From a virus (Duplodnaviria; Heunggongvirae; Uroviricota; Caudoviricetes): a stretch of DNA of 9,055 nt. Positions 2,428 through 9,055 of the stretch are shown piece after piece (within the stretch, counting starts at the first letter, position 1; every line of letters begins with the position of its first letter). The DNA lies in IMG/VR virus record IMGVR_UViG_3300028956_000044. One strand, given 5' to 3'. The position numbers and the translations under genes are program-made. Below the pieces are notes generated by a model. It was not told the origin of the DNA and did not search any database. It was given only the letters and a program-made list of their open reading frames with translations.

Positions 2428-2784
2428 GTGGGCGAAGTCAAACATCAGAATGGAAGGCGTCCAGGGATCAGCAAAGAAACAGCGATGGCGCTTTATATTG
2501 ATATCAGCGCCATTGCCGGACAGGTAAGAATTATCAGAGCGGTAACTAAGCGGTATGCGCCTTTACTTCAGAAAGTCTCTGGTGAGTGCACCGAAGATAT
2601 TGTCAACGATTTCGTCATCAAACTGCGAGGACTCATCTTCAGTTACAAGGTGACCACAATTTTTGCAGATGGCTCCCGCGAAACTGTCAGAGCCCTGCGG
2701 TTTAAAGGATGTGTCAAAGACTTCGCCACCACATTCTGGGCAAGAAAACTTGATTGTATTCATAACCAATTTCCTCTCGAGTAA
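2428..2784 (+). CDS. 118-aa ORF at the position of ydfA/ydfB in the dicB operon
   Basis: GTG start 7 nt after AGAGGA (2415-2420); first gene after the putative operon promoter. In K-12 I recall two small genes here (ydfA 51 aa, ydfB 42 aa); this window has one continuous frame. Its 3' two-thirds overlaps an antisense zinc-ribbon ORF, so the true extent is uncertain. Confidence 0.45.
   Translation: MGEVKHQNGRRPGISKETAMALYIDISAIAGQVRIIRAVTKRYAPLLQKVSGECTEDIVNDFVIKLRGLIFSYKVTTIFADGSRETVRALRFKGCVKDFATTFWARKLDCIHNQFPLE
2563..2763 (-). CDS. 66-aa Cys4 zinc-ribbon small protein, antisense to the ydfA/ydfB-equivalent region
   Basis: Minus-strand ORF MNTIKFSCPECGGEVFDTSFKPQGSDSFAGAICKNCGHLVTEDESSQFDDEIVDNIFGALTRDFLK with ATG at complement of 2761-2763, preceded by GAGAGG (complement of 2774-2779). 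Shows CPEC-x17-CKNC, a canonical zinc-ribbon spacing, followed by an acidic tail. Could still be a chance antisense frame. Confidence 0.35.
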   Translation of the reverse strand: MNTIKFSCPECGGEVFDTSFKPQGSDSFAGAICKNCGHLVTEDESSQFDDEIVDNIFGALTRDFLK

Positions 2785-3415: not shown

Positions 3416-3473
3416 TTTCTGGTGACGTTTGGCGGTATCAGTTTTACTCCGTGACTGCTCTGCCGCCCTTTTT
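3416..3473 (+). ncRNA. dicF: DicF small regulatory RNA (ftsZ-targeting sRNA of Qin-type prophages)
   Basis: The 53 nt at 3416-3468 match, to my recollection base for base, the E. coli DicF sequence. They end in a GC-rich hairpin plus a TTTTT run at 3469-3473. Position between ydfC and dicB is syntenic with K-12 Qin. Confidence 0.85.
3431..3473 (+). terminator. intrinsic terminator forming the DicF 3' end
   Basis: GGCGG (3431-3435) pairs with CCGCC (3463-3467), with an inner CAG/CTG pair, followed by CTTTTT. Confidence 0.75.
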
Positions 3474-3642: not shown

Positions 3643-3831
3643 ATGAAAACGTTATTACCAAACGTTAATACGTCTGAAGGTTGTTTTGAAATTGGTGTCA
3701 CTATCAGTAATCCTGTATTTACTGAAGATGCCATTAACAAAAGAAAACACGAACGGGAGTTATTAAATAAAGTATGCATTGTTTCAATGCTGGCCCGTTT
3801 ACGTCTGATGCCAAAAGGATGTGCACAATGA
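3643..3831 (+). CDS. dicB: cell-division inhibitor DicB (62 aa)
   Basis: ATG at 3643 preceded by GAGGG (3631-3635). The 62-aa product MKTLLPNVNTSEGCFEIGVTISNPVF matches my recollection of DicB, and it sits about 170 nt downstream of DicF as in K-12. The track's 97-aa version is an in-frame GTG extension with no RBS. Confidence 0.85.
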   Translation: MKTLLPNVNTSEGCFEIGVTISNPVFTEDAINKRKHERELLNKVCIVSMLARLRLMPKGCAQ

Positions 3832-4019
3832 ATCCAGTATTTGCACTTATTCTGACGGTTTTTCTTGTTTCCGGAGAGCCAGTTGATATTGCAGTCAGTG
3901 TTCACAGAACAATGCAGGAATGTATGGCAGCAGCAACCGAACAGAAAATTCCAGGCAACTGTTATCCGGTCGATAAAGTTATTCACCAGGATAATAACGA
4001 AATCCCGGCAGGATTTTAA
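3828..4019 (+). CDS. ydfD: YdfD-like small membrane/lysis protein (63 aa)
   Basis: ATG at 3828 overlaps the dicB TGA in an ATGA junction. Hydrophobic N-terminus (MNPVFALILTVFLVSG). Length and position match K-12 ydfD as I recall it. Confidence 0.7.
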   Translation: MNPVFALILTVFLVSGEPVDIAVSVHRTMQECMAAATEQKIPGNCYPVDKVIHQDNNEIPAGF

Positions 4020-4112: not shown

Positions 4113-6554
4113 ATGAGCACTGATAAAGAAGAATTTGCACTATATTGCGAAGCAAAAAATGACAAAGTAAGAAAACGCCTAGGAATTAAAGGTGGTTTTT
4201 ACTGGACTACAGCAAAAAAATTATCTGTTGCAATCTCCCGCTGCATTACCGCAATGGATGACAACGATTATGATGAAGACGACTTTAAAAAACCCGTCCG
4301 CGTCAATTTGCCCGTTGTTGACGACCTTCCGCCAGAAGGCGTGTTTGATACTGAATTCTGCAACCGCTATGAAAAAGGCGGGAAAGATGGCATCACAATG
4401 ACATTTATCGGCCCTTCCCCCTCTGTTCAGGACAAACCAGCCAGCACTGACAATACCAACATCAACGGCGAAGCCATGACTGAGATTGAGGAGAGCATGC
4501 TTCTGCCTGTCTCCGGTCAGGAACTGCCCATTCGTTGGCTTGCTCAACACGGCAGCGAAAAACCAGTAACGCACGTTTCACGCGACGAACTCCAGGCATT
4601 ACACATTGCACGGGCTGAAGAACTACCGGCTGTTACTGCCCTGGCTATTTCGCATAAAACCAGTCTGCTCGACTCGCTGGAGATTCGCGACCTCCACAAA
4701 CTGGTTCGTGACACTGACAAAGTTTTCCCTAATCCTGGTAATTCAGACCTGGGACTAATAACTGCTTTTTTCGAAGCATACCTAGACGCTGACTACACTG
4801 ATCGGGGTCTGCTGACAAAAGAGTGGATGAAAGGAAATCGTGTTTCACGCATCACCCGCACGGCTTCCGGTGCTAATGCTGGCGGTGGGAACAAAACCGA
4901 TCGCAATCCGAATTTAGTACACACCCTCGACACACTGGATGTGGAGATTGCAGCAGCCACACTTCCGATGGATTTTAATATTTATGAAATTCCGGGCAGC
5001 GTTTATCGTCGCGCAAAAGAAGTAGTCCTGAACAAAGAAAGTCCGTTCAAAGAATGGTCCGCAGCACTTCGTGCAACCCCGGGTATTCTGGACTATTCCC
5101 GCGCCGCTATTTTTGCACTTATCCGAAGCGCACACCCTGAATTTTATCACTACCCGGGACGCCTTCAGGGGTATATCAACGCCTATTTGACGGAAACTGA
5201 TCACGAGAACCCCAGCAAGGAAACTCTCACAGCTGCCCGGCATACGCCGGAAAAAGATATCCTGGAAGAAATTAACCGCGAGGTGGTTACTGAGCGTGAA
5301 ACAGAAGAAGAAAAACCACAACCATCTGACGCAATGGCAGGTGAACAGGCAACAACTGAAACAATGGAACCGGATACAACTGAACATGGCCAGAACGCGC
5401 AGTCGCTGGATGCTCAGTCGCAGGTGAGTTCCGCTAACCAAGTAAAAGTCACCGCTGACGAAGTAAACAAAATTATGCAGGCAGCCAATATCAGCCAGCC
5501 TGACGCCGATAAGTTACTTGCTGTATCGCGTGGTGAATTTGTTGAGGGGATTAGCGACCCTAATGATCCGAAATGGGTCAAAGGGATCCAGACTCGCGAT
5601 TCTGTGAACCAGAACCAGCATGAATCGGAACGGAACGACCAAAAAGCGGAACAAAACAGCCCAAATGCGTTACAAAACGAGCCAGAAACGAAACAATCCG
5701 AACCAGTGGCGCAACAGGAAGTGGAAAAAGTCTGCACCGCCTGCGGTCAGACCGGCGGCGGCAACTGCCCTGATTGTGGCGCGGTGATGGGCGACGCAAC
5801 ATACCAGGAAACATTCGATGAAGAGTATCAGGTTGAAGTTCAGGAAGATGATCCGGAGGAAATGGAAGGCGCTGAACATCCACACAAGGAGAACACTGGC
5901 GGCAATCAGCATCACGATAGCGATAATGAAACTGGCGAGACGGCAGATCACTCAATTAAGGTGAACGGTCATCAAGAAATCACATCCACCAGCAGGACGT
6001 GTGACCATCTAATGATCGACCTTGAAACCATGGGAAAAAATCCTGATGCCCCGATCATCTCAATAGGTGCAATATTTTTCGATCCGCAAACCGGAGATAT
6101 GGGACCGGAATTTAGTAAGACTATCGATCTGGAAACTGCTGGCGGAGTCATTGATCGGGACACCATTAAATGGTGGCTTAAGCAATCACGCGAAGCGCAA
6201 TCTGCCATTATGACCGATGAAATCCCGTTAGATGATGCACTGTTACAATTGCGGGAATTTATCGACGAAAACTCCGGTGAATTTTTTGTTCAGGTCTGGG
6301 GAAATGGAGCCAACTTCGACAACACGATTTTGCGCCGTTCATACGAACGGCAGGGGATCCCCTGCCCGTGGCGTTACTACAACGATCGCGATGTACGCAC
6401 AATCGTTGAGCTGGGGAAAGCCATAGACTTCGATGCCAGAACGGCTATTCCATTCGAAGGTGAGCGCCATAATGCACTTGATGACGCCCGTTACCAGGCA
6501 AAATACGTTTCAGTTATCTGGCAAAAACTGATCCCGAGTCAGGCTGATTCTTAA
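4113..6554 (+). CDS. ydfE: 813-aa RecE-N-terminal-like protein with C-terminal DEDDh 3'-5' exonuclease domain (full-length YdfE-type)
   Basis: ATG at 4113 with GAGG upstream. Residues ~1-360 resemble the N-terminal region of Rac RecE as I recall it. Residues ~370-625 are acidic and low-complexity, with a C-x2-C-x7-C-x2-C knuckle (nt 5733-5777). Residues 630-813 show DEDDh motifs: MIDLETMG (D636/E638, nt 6018-6026), [10 protein letters not shown] (D736, nt 6318-6320), HNALDDARY (H786, nt 6468-6470). Gene symbol is by synteny with K-12 ydfE, where I recall only a truncated remnant. Confidence 0.85.
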
Positions 6555-6565
6555 TGTTCAACTGT

Positions 6566-6597
6566 CGCCGGTTGTGACTGGTATTCTGCAACCGGCG
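6566..6597 (+). other. perfect 9-bp stem-loop CGCCGGTTG / CAACCGGCG between the exonuclease gene and xis; no U-run
   Basis: Read directly: 6566-6574 is the reverse complement of 6589-6597, with a 14-nt loop. No T-tract follows, so it is not a canonical intrinsic terminator. Confidence 0.4.
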
Positions 6598-6626
6598 CTC
6601 GTCTGATGTAAGAGATAAAGAAATCG

Positions 6627-6878
6627 ATGAGCGAAGTAATCATGATTGTCTCTCCCGGCAAATGGGTATCCGAAGAGCAGTTAATTGCGCTGAAAGGAAT
6701 AAAAAAAGGTACGTTAAAAAAGGCCCGGGAAAAATCGTTTATGGAAGGAAGGGAATATAAGCATGTCGCTCATGACGGTATGCCATGGGATAACAGTCCA
6801 TGCTTTTACAACCTGGAAGAAATTGATCGCTGGATTGAGCGCCAGGCATCAGCGAGACCAAGACGTCATCTTACTTGA
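6627..6878 (+). CDS. excisionase-like protein (Xis)
   Basis: 83-aa ORF ending 20 bp upstream of the integrase. Contains GREYKHVAH, reminiscent of the GREY-containing winged-helix of lambda Xis. An alternative start at the Met at 6642 is possible. Confidence 0.55.
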   Translation: MSEVIMIVSPGKWVSEEQLIALKGIKKGTLKKAREKSFMEGREYKHVAHDGMPWDNSPCFYNLEEIDRWIERQASARPRRHLT

Positions 6879-6897
6879 CTAAAAGCCACACTAACTA

Positions 6898-8193
6898 ATG
6901 AGAGAAGTTGAAATGAAATATCCGACAGGCGTGGAAAACCATGGAGGGAAATTACGTATCTGGTTTGTTTATAAAGGCGTAAGAGTCAGGGAAAATCTGG
7001 GGGTTCCTGACACATCAAAAAACAGGCGCGTTGCAGGTGAACTACGCTCCTCTGTTTGTTACGCAATAAAAACTGGTGTTTTCGACTATGCAAAACAGTT
7101 TCCCTCCTCACGCAATCTGGAAAAATTTGGTGAGGCCCGACAAGATTTAACCATAAAAGAACTGGCTGAAAAATTTTTGGCACTGAAAGAAACTGAAGTC
7201 GCCAAAACATCACTCAACACATACCGTGCCGTCATCAAAAATATCCTGAGCATAATCGGTGAAAAAAATCTTGCCTCATCGATTAATAAAGAAAAATTAC
7301 TGGAGGTTCGTAAAGAGCTACTGACTGGATACCAGATCCCCAAAAGTAACTATATTGTTACACAACCAGGGAGATCGGCTGTAACTGTAAATAATTACAT
7401 GACAAATCTTAACGCCGTGTTCCAGTTTGGTGTTGATAACGGTTACCTGGCAGATAATCCGTTTAAGGGGATCTCGCCATTAAAGGAATCAAGAACCATT
7501 CCGGATCCTCTTTCGCGGGAGGAATTTATCCGTCTTATCGATGCGTGCAGAAATCAGCAAGCAAAAAATTTATGGTGTGTTTCTGTTTATACTGGCGTTC
7601 GCCCTGGTGAGCTGTGTGCACTTGGATGGGAGGACATAGATCTGAAAAATGGAACAATGATGATCAGGAGAAATTTAGCAAAAGACCGTTTCACGGTACC
7701 AAAAACACAGGCGGGAACCAATCGGGTCATTCATCTTATTAAGCCAGCAATCGACGCTCTCCGGAGTCAGATGACATTAACGAGACTGAGCAAAGAGCAT
7801 ATCATTGATGTTCACCTCAGAGAGTATGGCAGAACAGAAAAACAAAAATGCACCTTTGTTTTTCAACCTGAAGTGTCAGCGAGAGTAAAAAATTATGGTG
7901 ACCATTTTACCGTTGACTCAATAAGGCAGATGTGGGACGCAGCGATAAAACGTGCCGGACTCCGCCATCGAAAATCATATCAGTCGAGACATACTTATGC
8001 CTGCTGGTCGCTGACAGCTGGTGCTAACCCGGCATTTATAGCAAACCAGATGGGCCATGCAGATGCGCAAATGGTATTTCAGGTATACGGAAAATGGATG
8101 TCTGAAAACAATAATGCACAGGTAGCTTTGTTAAATACACAGTTAAGCGAGTTTGCCCCAACCATGCCCCATAACGAAGCAATGAAAAATTAA
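6898..8193 (+). CDS. intQ: tyrosine site-specific integrase (Rac IntR-like; intact IntQ-type)
   Basis: 431-aa ORF. Tyrosine-recombinase catalytic segment visible: HRKSYQSRHTYACWSLTAGANP ... VFQVYGKWM. The MKYPTGVENHGGKLRIWF N-terminus resembles the Rac IntR family as I recall it. The second ATG at 6913 may be the true start. Symbol is by position next to rspB; K-12 intQ is, as I recall, a pseudogene. Confidence 0.9.
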   Translation: MREVEMKYPTGVENHGGKLRIWFVYKGVRVRENLGVPDTSKNRRVAGELRSSVCYAIKTGVFDYAKQFPSSRNLEKFGEARQDLTIKELAEKFLALKETEVAKTSLNTYRAVIKNILSIIGEKNLASSINKEKLLEVRKELLTGYQIPKSNYIVTQPGRSAVTVNNYMTNLNAVFQFGVDNGYLADNPFKGISPLKESRTIPDPLSREEFIRLIDACRNQQAKNLWCVSVYTGVRPGELCALGWEDIDLKNGTMMIRRNLAKDRFTVPKTQAGTNRVIHLIKPAIDALRSQMTLTRLSKEHIIDVHLREYGRTEKQKCTFVFQPEVSARVKNYGDHFTVDSIRQMWDAAIKRAGLRHRKSYQSRHTYACWSLTAGANPAFIANQMGHADAQMVFQVYGKWMSENNNAQVALLNTQLSEFAPTMPHNEAMKN

Positions 8194-8380: not shown

Positions 8381-9055
8381 TTATTCAGAAAAAGTGAGTA
8401 AGACTTTGCAGCAATGTTTTTGATCCTGTTCAAATAAACTAATGGCATCAGCAACATGCTGGAAATCAAACGTATGGGTAATTAATTTTTCTGGTTTAAT
8501 TAACCCTTTACTTAACCAGTCGATAACAACCGGAAATTTATTTGCATTTAAGCGTGAAGAGAAAATAGAGAGTTCTTTTCCGGTAATTCCTTGCTGAATC
8601 ACTTCAGACGGTTCACTGGAGAAGCCCATCAATACAATACGTGCCGCTGGAGAAGCCAGCGTTACGGCCTCTTTCAGGATAGAAGGATGACAAGCCGCAT
8701 CGATAATTAATGTCGGCTTGATGCCTTTTTCAGCGAAAATCTCGCCAAGCGGTGTCTGGCTGTTATTGATCGCCCAGTCTGCCCCGCTCTCTTTCGCTTT
8801 TTCCAGTCGTTCATCAATGCGATCGGCAACAATCACATTTTTAACGTTATAGACGCCTTTTAATACCTGAACGATCGTCAGGCCGATTGGACCGGCACCA
8901 TAAACCAGAACGGTATCATTTTCAGTCGGTTGACCATGTCCGGTTACGTTAGCCGCAATGGTAAAAGGTTCGATCATTACCGCATATTGATCGGCCACTG
9001 CTTCAGGAATTTTCCACGCATTTTTTGCCGGAACCACGGCATATTCACTGAAACC
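8381..9055 (-). CDS. rspB: zinc-dependent medium-chain dehydrogenase, C-terminal part (RspB-like); 5' end beyond window
   Basis: ORF open to the window edge on the minus strand. Rossmann nucleotide-binding segment VLVYGAGPIGL visible. Convergent with the integrase; rspB assignment rests on recalled K-12 synteny (intQ adjacent to rspB) and was not checked by alignment. Confidence 0.7.
   Translation of the reverse strand, partial: GFSEYAVVPAKNAWKIPEAVADQYAVMIEPFTIAANVTGHGQPTENDTVLVYGAGPIGLTIVQVLKGVYNVKNVIVADRIDERLEKAKESGADWAINNSQTPLGEIFAEKGIKPTLIIDAACHPSILKEAVTLASPAARIVLMGFSSEPSEVIQQGITGKELSIFSSRLNANKFPVVIDWLSKGLIKPEKLITHTFDFQHVADAISLFEQDQKHCCKVLLTFSE

What the first reader, a model, noticed from the sequence alone, without database searches (positions are those of the whole stretch)
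5733..5777. Cys4 zinc knuckle embedded in a long acidic low-complexity linker of the exonuclease protein
C541-x2-C544-x7-C552-x2-C555 ([17 protein letters not shown]) sits in an otherwise D/E/Q-rich, probably disordered region (residues ~370-625) between the N-terminal domain and the DEDDh domain. This could be a nucleic-acid or protein docking element, or a DNA-mimic-like region. Not a feature I associate with RecE.
Basis: seen in the sequence. Interest (0 to 1): 0.45.

Follow-up and report, generated by a model that had tools for sequence, protein, structure and literature searches.

The report
Portable Cys4 zinc-ribbon tag in RecE-like exonuclease
The four cysteines are real and conserved, but they are a normal part of E. 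coli RecE's N-terminal region: a roughly 30-residue, probably zinc-binding mini-module that also sits at the end of Dam methylases from unrelated phages, which suggests a shared docking tag of unknown partner.

Summary
Observation confirmed. C541-x2-C544-x7-C552-x2-C555 is encoded at nt 5733-5777 of the 813-aa ORF 4113-6554(+). It lies in an acidic linker that AlphaFold2 predicts with low confidence, between a folded N-terminal domain and a DEDDh exonuclease domain.

The remark "not a feature of RecE" is wrong. K-12-lineage RecE carries the same motif at C517/C520/C528/C531, and the window protein matches the RecE model over aa 1-615. Only the C-terminal nuclease is swapped: DEDDh here, PD-(D/E)XK in RecE.

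The motif is the core of a discrete module of about 30 aa, V-CxxCG-xxGGGx-CPDCG-[AP]VMG-xxTY-xE[MT]F. Its Cys, Pro and Asp residues are invariant, although their codons vary synonymously. The module survives where the flanking sequence is unalignable. Most distant RecE homologues, such as the Salmonella Gifsy type, lack it.

The same module forms the C-terminal extension of Dam methyltransferases in P2-like phages and prophages of many Enterobacterales.

No curated family or solved structure covers it, and I found no paper that mentions it. The best reading is a small structural zinc ribbon acting as a portable protein-docking tag. Zinc binding and the partner are inferred, not shown. Interest is moderate.

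The parts
4113..6554 (+). Gene for an 813-aa prophage exonuclease. It combines a RecE-type N-terminal region with a DEDDh 3'-5' exonuclease C-terminal domain.
   Evidence: ORF. Pfam PF06630 at aa 57-189 and PF16473 at aa 632-803. NCBIfam NF007259 (RecE) matches aa 1-615 only. The gene is 100% identical to 'exonuclease' WP_000102136.1 of E. coli M217 and to phage vB_EcoS-640R1.
4113..5297 (+). Folded N-terminal domain (aa 1 to ~395), shared with RecE. Its function is unknown.
5298..5987 (+). Acidic, Q/E/D-rich linker of low predicted order (aa ~396-625). It carries the two conserved islands listed below.
   Evidence: Composition: 57 D/E against 18 K/R in aa 370-625. pLDDT below 50 over most of aa 400-645.
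5502..5582 (+). Conserved linker island [26 protein letters not shown] (aa 464-490). It is more widespread than the Cys4 module.
   Evidence: 70-85% identity to divergent homologues that lack the Cys4 block, including Salmonella FSL SP-016 RecE, which reads [18 protein letters not shown]. Weak PF13284 DUF4072 hit at aa 454-481. pLDDT 66-79.
5727..5816 (+). The whole conserved mini-module, aa 539-568: [30 protein letters not shown].
   Evidence: Alignments A4 and A5. Invariant: the four Cys, P553 and D554. Conserved in at least 90% of sequences: G545, G549, G556, V558, M559, G560, T563, Y564, F568. The block is retained in P0152 and P0206 and in Dam methylases, where the flanks are unalignable. 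pLDDT peaks at ~70 on aa 540-559.
5733..5777 (+).
6006..6521 (+). DEDDh (Rv2179c-like, DnaQ-like) 3'-5' exonuclease domain. It replaces the PD-(D/E)XK domain of RecE.
   Evidence: PF16473 at 227 bits against a cut-off of 27, aa 632-803. Similar to a 227-aa PDB 'Exodeoxyribonuclease', 8kel_A, at E=1.8e-6. Similarity to K-12-lineage RecE ends at about aa 615.

Best explanation
The four cysteines most likely bind one structural metal ion, probably Zn2+. They would do so through two rubredoxin-type knuckles (CTACG and CPDCG) joined by a Gly-rich 7-residue loop, forming a minimal zinc ribbon. The ribbon and the conserved segment after it ([13 protein letters not shown]) make up a self-contained module of about 30 residues. 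The module behaves as a mobile accessory cassette. It sits in the flexible acidic linker of RecE-family proteins, whichever nuclease follows (the 5'-3' PD-(D/E)XK domain in RecE or the 3'-5' DEDDh domain here). It also forms the C-terminal extension of Dam methyltransferases from P2-like phages. I propose that it is a small rigid protein-protein docking tag held on a flexible tether. It would bring different phage DNA-processing enzymes to one common partner, probably a host protein of Enterobacterales and their relatives at replication forks or DNA ends. Shown here: the motif, its conservation under purifying selection, its modular distribution, and the absence of any curated family. Inferred only: metal binding, the fold, the docking role and the partner.
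For: - The motif is present and unlikely by chance.
- The Cys, Pro and Asp residues are invariant although their codons change synonymously.
- 112 of 120 E. coli/Shigella cluster representatives keep all four Cys and the spacing, with 22 different versions of the residues in between. Five of the 8 exceptions are truncated or frameshifted fragments and three carry local lesions.
- Both halves match the CxxCG/CPxCG knuckle pattern.
- Every sub-threshold Pfam hit of the isolated module except Rifin (PF02009), DUF2321 (PF10083) and DUF7573 (PF24458) is a zinc-ribbon or rubredoxin-like family: DZR, Zn_ribbon_3, Zn_Ribbon_TF, Zn_ribbon_LapB and others.
- Most PDB profile hits, all sub-threshold, are also zinc ribbons: TFIIB, bL32, RadA, rubredoxin.
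- In the AlphaFold2 model of aa 520-600, pLDDT peaks at 70-71 with beta-bridges exactly on aa 540-559, and the flanks fall below 50.
- Modularity in RecE-type proteins. The same block occurs in K-12-lineage RecE, in proteins with a different N-terminus (L003), and in divergent Salmonella and E. coli PD-(D/E)XK proteins P0152 and P0206, whose flanks are unalignable.
- Modularity beyond RecE. The block sits at the C-terminus of D12-class Dam methylases in phages phiT5282H and SW3/SW5/SI7, in a K. pneumoniae element, and in prophages of Yokenella, Citrobacter, Trabulsiella, Enterobacter, Hafnia, Kosakonia and Klebsiella. There PF02086 ends at about aa 265 and the module follows it.
- tblastn is reciprocal: the RecE-type block finds the Dam type at E 2e-5 to 8e-7, and the Dam-type block finds the RecE type at 3e-8.
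- The residues conserved outside the Cys are G, V, M, T, Y, F and D. No basic residue is conserved and the module is neutral to acidic. This fits a protein-contact surface or mini-core better than a DNA-binding surface.
- The carriers come from unrelated phage groups, lambdoid and Peduoviridae, that share only their host range. This points to a host partner (inference).
Against: - No metal, structure or interaction was measured.
- The AlphaFold2 confidence on the block is only moderate (about 70; 58 in the full-length run). I had no coordinates, so the Cys geometry could not be checked.
- Foldseek found no significant structural neighbour for the module model.
- The module is dispensable for the family. 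73 of 81 full-length representatives, including Gifsy-type RecE, lack it.
- The RecE nuclease domain alone supports recombination, according to review PMC11611040.
- No partner was identified, and no known short docking motif, such as a clamp-binding motif, fits the conserved tail.
- Rare natural variants with C552Y or C552G exist, although they come from tiny clusters.
Confidence: 0.5

Rival explanations
1. The module is a nucleic-acid-binding zinc finger. It would help the tethered nuclease or methylase hold DNA ends, ssDNA or a particular DNA structure.
For: All carriers are DNA enzymes: RecE-type exonuclease, DEDDh exonuclease and Dam. Small C4 zinc ribbons in TFIIB, RadA and primases do contact nucleic acids, and weak profile hits to TFIIB and RadA were seen.
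Against: No Lys or Arg is conserved in the module. Its net charge is neutral to negative in all 14 variants examined. In RecE-type proteins it sits in a linker with net charge of about -39, which should repel DNA. The conserved non-Cys residues are Gly and hydrophobic or aromatic residues.
Confidence: 0.15
2. The module is purely structural or self-associating. It would be a metal staple that compacts or protects the flexible linker, or that links subunits of the oligomeric nuclease, with no external partner.
For: It lies in an otherwise disordered linker. The RecE nuclease domain is a tetramer (PMC11611040). Conserved V558, M559, Y564 and F568 could simply form the mini-core of the ribbon.
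Against: The same module is the extreme C-terminal appendage of Dam methylases, where there is no linker to staple. Strong conservation of an exposed tail of about 10 residues after the last Cys, across carriers with unrelated flanks, is more than a staple needs.
Confidence: 0.15
3. The site binds iron or is redox-active. It would be a rubredoxin-like Fe(Cys)4 centre or a thiol switch that makes enzyme activity or stability respond to oxidative stress.
For: The CxxCG...CPxCG pattern is the rubredoxin knuckle signature. Weak hits to rubredoxin-like families were seen.
Against: The 7-residue spacer and the lack of rubredoxin's aromatic core do not fit. Nothing in the genomic context links it to redox chemistry. 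Most Cys4 ribbons of this size bind Zn (general knowledge).
Confidence: 0.07
4. The module is a neutral passenger. It would be a recently spread insert that looks conserved only because the E. coli prophage copies are young.
For: Most copies are in closely related E. coli and Shigella prophages. The module is absent from most distant homologues. Occasional C552Y or C552G variants and frameshifts occur.
Against: Synonymous codon changes occur at every invariant position. The block is retained at 55-70% identity where the flanks have diverged beyond alignment and on a different enzyme class. The residues between the Cys vary while the Cys never do in intact copies.
Confidence: 0.05

Closest known systems
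N-terminal region of E. coli K-12 Rac prophage RecE (exonuclease VIII; NCBIfam NF007259, Pfam PF06630)
   Same: The window protein aligns with RecE over aa 1-615. This includes an almost identical Cys4 block (RecE C517/C520/C528/C531) and the following [15 protein letters not shown]. Both genes lie in the early-left operon of lambdoid prophages upstream of xis/int.
   Different: RecE continues into a PD-(D/E)XK 5'-3' nuclease domain (PF12684) and is followed by recT. The window protein continues into a DEDDh 3'-5' exonuclease domain (PF16473) and is followed directly by xis/int with no recT. No function, and no zinc, has been reported for this part of RecE in the papers I could search.
C-terminal extension of Dam (D12-class) methyltransferases of P2-like phages (e.g. 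Enterobacter phage phiT5282H, Salmonella phages SW3/SI7)
   Same: The same module is present, V-CxxCG-R-x-GGG-x-CPDCG-[AP]-VMG-xx-TY, at 55-70% identity, with reciprocal tblastn hits.
   Different: Here the module is terminal rather than internal. It is followed by a short Ala/Gly stretch and in most cases by an acidic tail ending in Phe, such as FDDLEAF-COOH. The catalytic domain is a methyltransferase.
Generic zinc ribbons (Pfam DZR PF12773, Zn_ribbon_3 PF13248, TFIIB Zn_Ribbon_TF PF08271)
   Same: Two CxxC knuckles are predicted to flank short beta elements, and weak profile matches fall on exactly these residues.
   Different: All scores are below the gathering thresholds; the best is DZR at 16.4 bits against 27.3. 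The 7-residue Gly-rich spacer is short. The invariant P-D in knuckle 2 and the conserved GxVMGDATY tail are specific to this module.
Rubredoxin-type metal knuckles (CxxCG ... CPxCG)
   Same: Both halves of the motif, CTACG and CPDCG, fit the knuckle consensus, including the Gly after the second Cys and the Pro after the third.
   Different: In rubredoxin the knuckles are about 29 residues apart around an aromatic core that binds Fe (my own knowledge). Here the spacer is 7 residues. The rubredoxin hit in the PDB search is not significant at E=2.2.
Retroviral-type CCHC zinc knuckle (C-x2-C-x4-H-x4-C)
   Different: The window motif has no His ligand, different spacing and no basic or aromatic RNA-binding residues. 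No match to that family appeared in any scan.

Membership tests
RecE / exodeoxyribonuclease VIII (NCBIfam NF007259 equivalog) | Full-length match above the curated cut-off (1269 bits) | tested here: not met
   944 bits, and only model positions 1-602 of 877 are matched.
RecE / exodeoxyribonuclease VIII (NCBIfam NF007259 equivalog) | N-terminal Exonuc_VIII region (PF06630) and the linker, including the Cys4 block | tested here: met
   PF06630 at 123 bits against a cut-off of 25. The alignment with K-12-lineage RecE is continuous to aa ~615, with the Cys4 block conserved.
RecE / exodeoxyribonuclease VIII (NCBIfam NF007259 equivalog) | C-terminal PD-(D/E)XK 5'-3' nuclease domain (PF12684) and an adjacent recT | tested here: not met
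   The window protein has no PF12684 hit, while RecE scores 99 bits. The next ORFs are xis and int, not recT.
DEDDh 3'-5' exonuclease, Rv2179c-like (PF16473) | Domain match above the gathering score, with DxE ... D ... H-x4-D residues | tested here: met
   227 bits against 27, aa 632-803, covering the full profile. [14 protein letters not shown] and HNALDDA are visible in the translation.
Zinc ribbon (Pfam DZR / Zn_ribbon_3 / Zn_Ribbon_TF) | Two CxxC pairs positioned to give four metal ligands | tested here: met
   C541/C544 and C552/C555 are invariant in 44 diverse sequences.
Zinc ribbon (Pfam DZR / Zn_ribbon_3 / Zn_Ribbon_TF) | Profile score at or above the family gathering threshold | tested here: not met
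   Best scores are DZR 16.4 against 27.3, Zn_Ribbon_TF 14.3 against 29 and Zn_ribbon_3 12.4 against 27.
Zinc ribbon (Pfam DZR / Zn_ribbon_3 / Zn_Ribbon_TF) | Beta-hairpin 'ribbon' fold around the metal site | tested here: inconclusive
   AlphaFold2 shows isolated beta-bridges and pLDDT of about 70 on aa 540-559. There is no significant Foldseek neighbour.
Zinc ribbon (Pfam DZR / Zn_ribbon_3 / Zn_Ribbon_TF) | Stoichiometric Zn2+ binding | not testable with these tools
   This needs metal analysis of purified protein.
CCHC zinc knuckle (PF00098) | C-x2-C-x4-H-x4-C ligand pattern | tested here: not met
   The sequence is C-x2-C-x7-C-x2-C with no His in the block. No hit appeared in the Pfam scans.
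Rubredoxin | CxxCG and CPxCG knuckles separated by about 29 residues with an aromatic core; Fe binding | tested here: not met
   The knuckle consensus is present but the spacer is 7 residues. The rubredoxin PDB hit has E=2.2 and Zn_ribbon_LapB has E=8.2. The metal identity cannot be tested here.

The most novel reading that the evidence does not exclude
The 30-residue Cys4 module, together with the acidic, aromatic stretch that follows it, is a portable targeting tag. Unrelated temperate phages (lambdoid and P2-like) would have exchanged it to deliver different DNA enzymes (5'-3' exonuclease, 3'-5' exonuclease, Dam methylase) to one host hub at the replication fork or at DNA ends. In the Dam carriers the tail often ends in FD[DG]xxxF-COOH, which resembles the SSB C-terminal tail. 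That tail reads DFDDDIPF in E. coli (my own knowledge); compare the FDDEIPF pattern in PMC13490951. The hub could therefore be a protein that reads SSB tails. If this is right, the module would also help explain why full-length RecE outperforms the truncated nuclease in linear-linear recombination.
Probability: 0.2. Interest if true: 0.65.

Novelty: new variant of a known kind. Interest (0 to 1): 0.4.

Why it matters
RecE/RecT is a workhorse of recombineering, yet about two thirds of RecE, its N-terminal part, has no known function (PMC11611040, PMC11610958). This module is a small, sharply defined and strongly constrained element inside that region. Its coding segment is present in 83% of complete E. 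coli genomes, in up to 8 copies. It therefore offers a concrete handle: Cys-to-Ser mutants, a 30-residue bait for partner hunting, and deletion in linear-linear recombination assays. Its reuse on Dam methylases from an unrelated phage family suggests a common docking target for phage DNA-processing enzymes. Such a target would be of interest for phage-host biology and for engineering recombineering or methylation tools. If the module turns out to be only a structural staple, the finding is an ordinary zinc ribbon and matters little.

Tried and rejected
1. The search for homologous proteins with aa 455-625 returned only E. coli/Shigella fragments shorter than 300 aa. With the full protein it returned 120 sequences all about 100% identical. 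Both were useful for counting Cys conservation but not for diversity.
2. The viral-contig scan with the module profile returned 80 loci all identical to the E. coli type. The species-level genome scan supplied the diversity instead.
4. Pfam and NCBIfam scans of the isolated module found no family above threshold. The PDB sequence-profile search gave a best E of 0.042, to an unnamed 68-aa 'conserved protein', 9qtr_i.
5. I considered a beta-clamp-binding motif in YQETF / YQEMF and rejected it. The Gln is not conserved in the Dam carriers (N, D or G at that position) and the spacing does not fit QLxLF (and my own knowledge).
6. I considered RecT as the partner and think it unlikely. The window gene and the P2-like Dam genes have no recT nearby.
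7. I considered programmed frameshifting, because several database fragments change frame just after the module. There is no slippery run, and the fragments come from small clusters or contig ends. Decay of cryptic prophages or sequencing errors are the likelier explanations.
8. The primary paper on full-length RecE (Fu et al. 2012, PMID 22544021) is not held in the library, so the truncation data could not be checked.
Full report
**The observation**

The window encodes an 813-aa protein at 4113-6554(+). Nucleotides 5730-5780 read gtc-TGC-acc-gcc-TGC-ggt-cag-acc-ggc-ggc-ggc-aac-TGC-cct-gat-TGT-ggc.

The protein has only nine cysteines, and none lies between residues 84 and 540 or between 556 and 629. 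Random placement of nine Cys in 813 positions produced any CxxC-x(4-20)-CxxC arrangement in 31 of 300,000 trials.

**The protein that carries it**

- Pfam finds the RecE N-terminal family PF06630 at aa 57-189 and a DEDDh 3'-5' exonuclease domain (PF16473, Rv2179c-like) at aa 632-803, scoring 227 bits.
- The NCBIfam RecE model NF007259 matches aa 1-615 to model positions 1-602 of 877. It stays under its cut-off because the C-terminal third of the model is not matched.
- The gene is 100% identical to 'exonuclease' WP_000102136.1 of E. coli M217 and to a gene of phage vB_EcoS-640R1.
- It lies in a Qin/Rac-like lambdoid prophage: DicF RNA at 3417-3468, then dicB, ydfD, this gene, xis and int, and then a host Zn-dependent oxidoreductase gene. 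No recT follows it.
- AlphaFold2, run with a 110-sequence alignment, gives a confident fold for aa 1 to ~395 (pLDDT mostly above 90). For most of aa 400-645 pLDDT is below 50, with small islands at aa 448-490 and 541-550.

**The motif belongs to RecE**

I aligned the window protein with RecE of a K-12-lineage strain (WP_000105143.1, 866 aa). Similarity is continuous up to about aa 615, and the block is nearly identical: RecE reads [32 protein letters not shown], with Cys at 517, 520, 528 and 531.

After ETGE-AD the two proteins diverge completely. RecE continues into the PD-(D/E)XK domain (PF12684) and the window protein into DEDDh.

The block lies upstream of the RecE nuclease domain (residues 564-866 according to PMC11611040). 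The truncated enzyme used in vitro therefore lacks it.

Two 2023 reviews state that the function of the RecE N-terminal part is unknown or unclear, and neither mentions zinc. A full-text search for 'exonuclease VIII' together with 'zinc' found nothing relevant. A 2025 survey notes DnaQ-like 3'-5' nucleases in lambdoid recombination modules but does not discuss this linker.

**Conservation**

- Among 120 E. coli/Shigella cluster representatives that match aa 455-625, 112 keep all four Cys with the same spacing. The residues between the Cys occur in 22 versions.
- Of the eight exceptions, five are fragments that are cut or frameshifted inside the block (P0108, P0109, P0113, P0116, P0118). Three come from tiny clusters: C552Y in P0018 (3 members), C552G in P0080 (2 members) and a local frameshift in P0091 (1 member).
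- In an alignment of 44 diverse module-bearing sequences, the only invariant columns are C541, C544, C552, P553, D554 and C555. G545, G549, G556, V558, M559, G560, T563, Y564 and F568 are conserved in at least 90% of sequences.
- Twenty distinct DNA versions show TGC/TGT at every Cys codon, CCT/CCG at Pro and GAT/GAC at Asp, with the amino acids unchanged. This indicates selection on the protein sequence, not merely recent common descent.
- The 243-nt segment around the block is present in 4513 of 5426 complete E. coli genomes, in up to eight copies per genome.

**The module is accessory**

I searched 1.84 billion representative proteins with aa 1-625 and obtained 270 hits. Of the 81 listed representatives of at least 400 aa, only eight carry the motif. 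The Gifsy-type RecE of Salmonella phage FSL SP-016 has the N-terminal domain, an acidic linker and the other linker island ([16 protein letters not shown]), but has no Cys at all in its linker.

Where the module does occur, it is combined with either nuclease type, with a third type of C-terminus (P0125), and with a different N-terminus (L003-type).

Two divergent PD-(D/E)XK proteins, from Salmonella enterica and E. coli (P0152 and P0206/P0388), have flanks that cannot be aligned with the window protein. They nevertheless keep vCTGCGA[VI]GGGHCPDCGAV[MT]GDATYA.

**A new lead: the same module on Dam methylases**

A tblastn search of the 40-residue block against 50,697 phage records hit only 50 records. 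All but four were annotated exonuclease/exonuclease VIII genes, Dam-family methyltransferases of P2-like phages or a hypothetical protein of two Aeromonas phages, or lay in records without annotation. The four exceptions were two weak matches at E=0.9 on a helicase gene of Lactobacillus phage LfeSau (listed under two accessions) and two partial matches of 16 residues on DNA methyltransferase genes of Klebsiella phage ST16-OXA48phi5.4 (also two accessions), which I did not examine further.

The Dam carriers found there are:
- Enterobacter phage phiT5282H
- Salmonella phages SW3, SW5 and SI7
- a K. pneumoniae element

The translated Dam proteins end in sequences such as [45 protein letters not shown] and VIGVLRV-CDGCGRSGGGYCPDCGPVMGASTYDAMAAAGAFDGAEGF*.

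A scan of one genome per bacterial species found the same arrangement in prophage Dam genes of Yokenella, Citrobacter, Trabulsiella, Salmonella, Enterobacter, Hafnia, Kosakonia and Klebsiella. It also found the module in small proteins of Plesiomonas and Oceanisphaera. In the Dam proteins Pfam PF02086 covers residues 8 to ~265 and nothing covers the tail.

The reverse search, with a Dam-type block as query, retrieves the RecE-type exonucleases at E=3e-8. The block is therefore a homologous, mobile cassette of about 30 residues. It is shared by three classes of phage DNA enzymes in two unrelated phage groups that infect Enterobacterales and their relatives.

**What the module is**

Both halves fit the rubredoxin-type knuckle consensus (CxxCG and CPxCG). 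Scanned alone, the module gives only sub-threshold hits, and all but three of these (Rifin, DUF2321, DUF7573) are zinc-ribbon or rubredoxin-like families: DZR at 16.4 bits against a cut-off of 27.3, Zn_Ribbon_TF, Zn_ribbon_3 and Zn_ribbon_LapB. A profile search of PDB sequences gives mainly weak zinc-ribbon hits (TFIIB, bL32, RadA, rubredoxin), with a best E of 0.042.

An AlphaFold2 model of aa 520-600 has its confidence maximum (70-71) exactly on aa 540-559, with beta-bridges before knuckle 1 and after knuckle 2. A low-confidence helix covers aa 562-578 and the flanks fall below 50. Foldseek finds no significant neighbour.

The module is best described as a minimal Cys4 zinc ribbon of a family that has not been curated. 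It is not a CCHC 'zinc knuckle'. Metal binding is inferred, not shown.

**How it probably works**

- The conserved non-Cys residues are Gly, Val, Met, Thr, Tyr, Phe and Asp.
- No basic residue is conserved, and all 14 variants examined are neutral or acidic.
- In RecE-type proteins the module sits in a linker with a net charge of about -39.

These features argue against direct DNA binding. They favour a small rigid protein-contact element presented on a flexible tether.

The catalytic partners differ: two nucleases of opposite polarity and a methylase. The phage backgrounds differ too. RecT is absent next to the window gene and next to the P2-like Dam genes. The simplest common denominator is therefore a host protein. 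This step is inference.

One observation may point to the partner. Eight of ten distinct Dam-type tails end in Phe, and six read FD[DG]xxxF-COOH. This resembles the SSB C-terminal tail, which is DFDDDIPF in E. coli (my own knowledge); compare the FDDEIPF pattern in PMC13490951. In the window protein the corresponding stretch is internal (TFDEEYQ...), so it cannot be a true C-terminal mimic. I treat this as a lead only.

RecE and phage Dam have been discussed together as anti-restriction functions and as triggers of retron defence (bioRxiv 10.1101/2020.06.22.160242). This shows that the two enzyme classes meet the same host systems, but says nothing about the module itself.

**Rival explanations**

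The rivals are a nucleic-acid-binding finger, a purely structural or self-associating staple, an Fe or redox site, and a neutral passenger. Each is weighed in the Rival explanations section of this report. The last is the least likely, given the synonymous-codon evidence and the retention of the block in diverged contexts.

**Verdict**

It is wrong on the point that made the finding seem odd, because the motif is a standard part of RecE.

What is new is the delineation of a mobile zinc-ribbon cassette of about 30 residues and its presence on P2-like phage Dam methylases. It is a new variant of a known kind of element and of moderate interest. It is very common, has not been studied, and lies in a protein region whose function has been open for decades, but it has no demonstrated function yet.

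Noticed in passing
   Followed up: partly
window 5502-5582 (aa 464-490): A second conserved linker island, [26 protein letters not shown], is much more widespread than the Cys4 module. It is 70-85% identical even in Salmonella Gifsy-type RecE and in many divergent homologues that lack the cysteines. There is a weak DUF4072 hit. It is probably another short docking motif.
   Followed up: partly
L006:1658-2629, L008:1679-2632, L009:1649-2632, L100-L108 (Dam genes of P2-like phages and prophages): After the Cys4 module, most of these Dam methylases end in an acidic tail with a C-terminal Phe, such as FDDLEAF*, FDGAEGF*, FDDRNIF* or QEPF*. This resembles the SSB C-terminal tail DFDDDIPF. It may be an SSB-tail mimic that targets Dam to SSB-binding proteins.
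   Followed up: partly
window 6555-8193: The exonuclease gene is followed directly by excisionase (6627-6878) and integrase (6898-8193) genes, with no recT. In Rac, recE is followed by recT, ralR and rcbA. The DEDDh fusion therefore works without a cognate annealase gene next to it.
   Followed up: no
window 3417-3468 (+): A DicF antisense sRNA gene (Rfam RF00039, 76.7 bits) lies upstream of dicB (3643-3831) and ydfD (3828-4019). This marks the element as a Qin/Rac-like lambdoid prophage.
   Followed up: yes
window 2563-2769 (-): A separate small Cys4 protein (68 aa; CPECG...x21...CKNCG) belongs to the 'ECs_2282 family putative zinc-binding protein' (NF047912, 57 bits). It is unrelated to the exonuclease module.
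   Followed up: partly
window ~5800-5830, seen in database fragments: Nine of 104 distinct database segments switch reading frame shortly after the module (e.g. ...GDATYQKHSMKRIRLKFRK...). Rare variants also carry C552Y or C552G. The likely causes are decay of cryptic prophage copies or assembly errors. No slippery sequence is evident.
   Followed up: partly
window 8381-9055 (-): The window ends inside a host gene for a Zn-dependent oxidoreductase (NF007489/PRK10083, model positions 123-339). This marks the prophage-chromosome junction downstream of int. The best whole-gene match, E. coli M217, carries the same exonuclease gene at a different chromosomal site, next to potC.
   Followed up: no
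P0125 cluster (E. coli, 678-682 aa): A third architecture exists: the RecE N-terminal domain, then the Cys4 module, then a short C-terminus with no detectable nuclease domain (Pfam finds only PF06630). It may correspond to the nuclease-less 'RecE-2' proteins mentioned in PMC12315714.
   Followed up: partly
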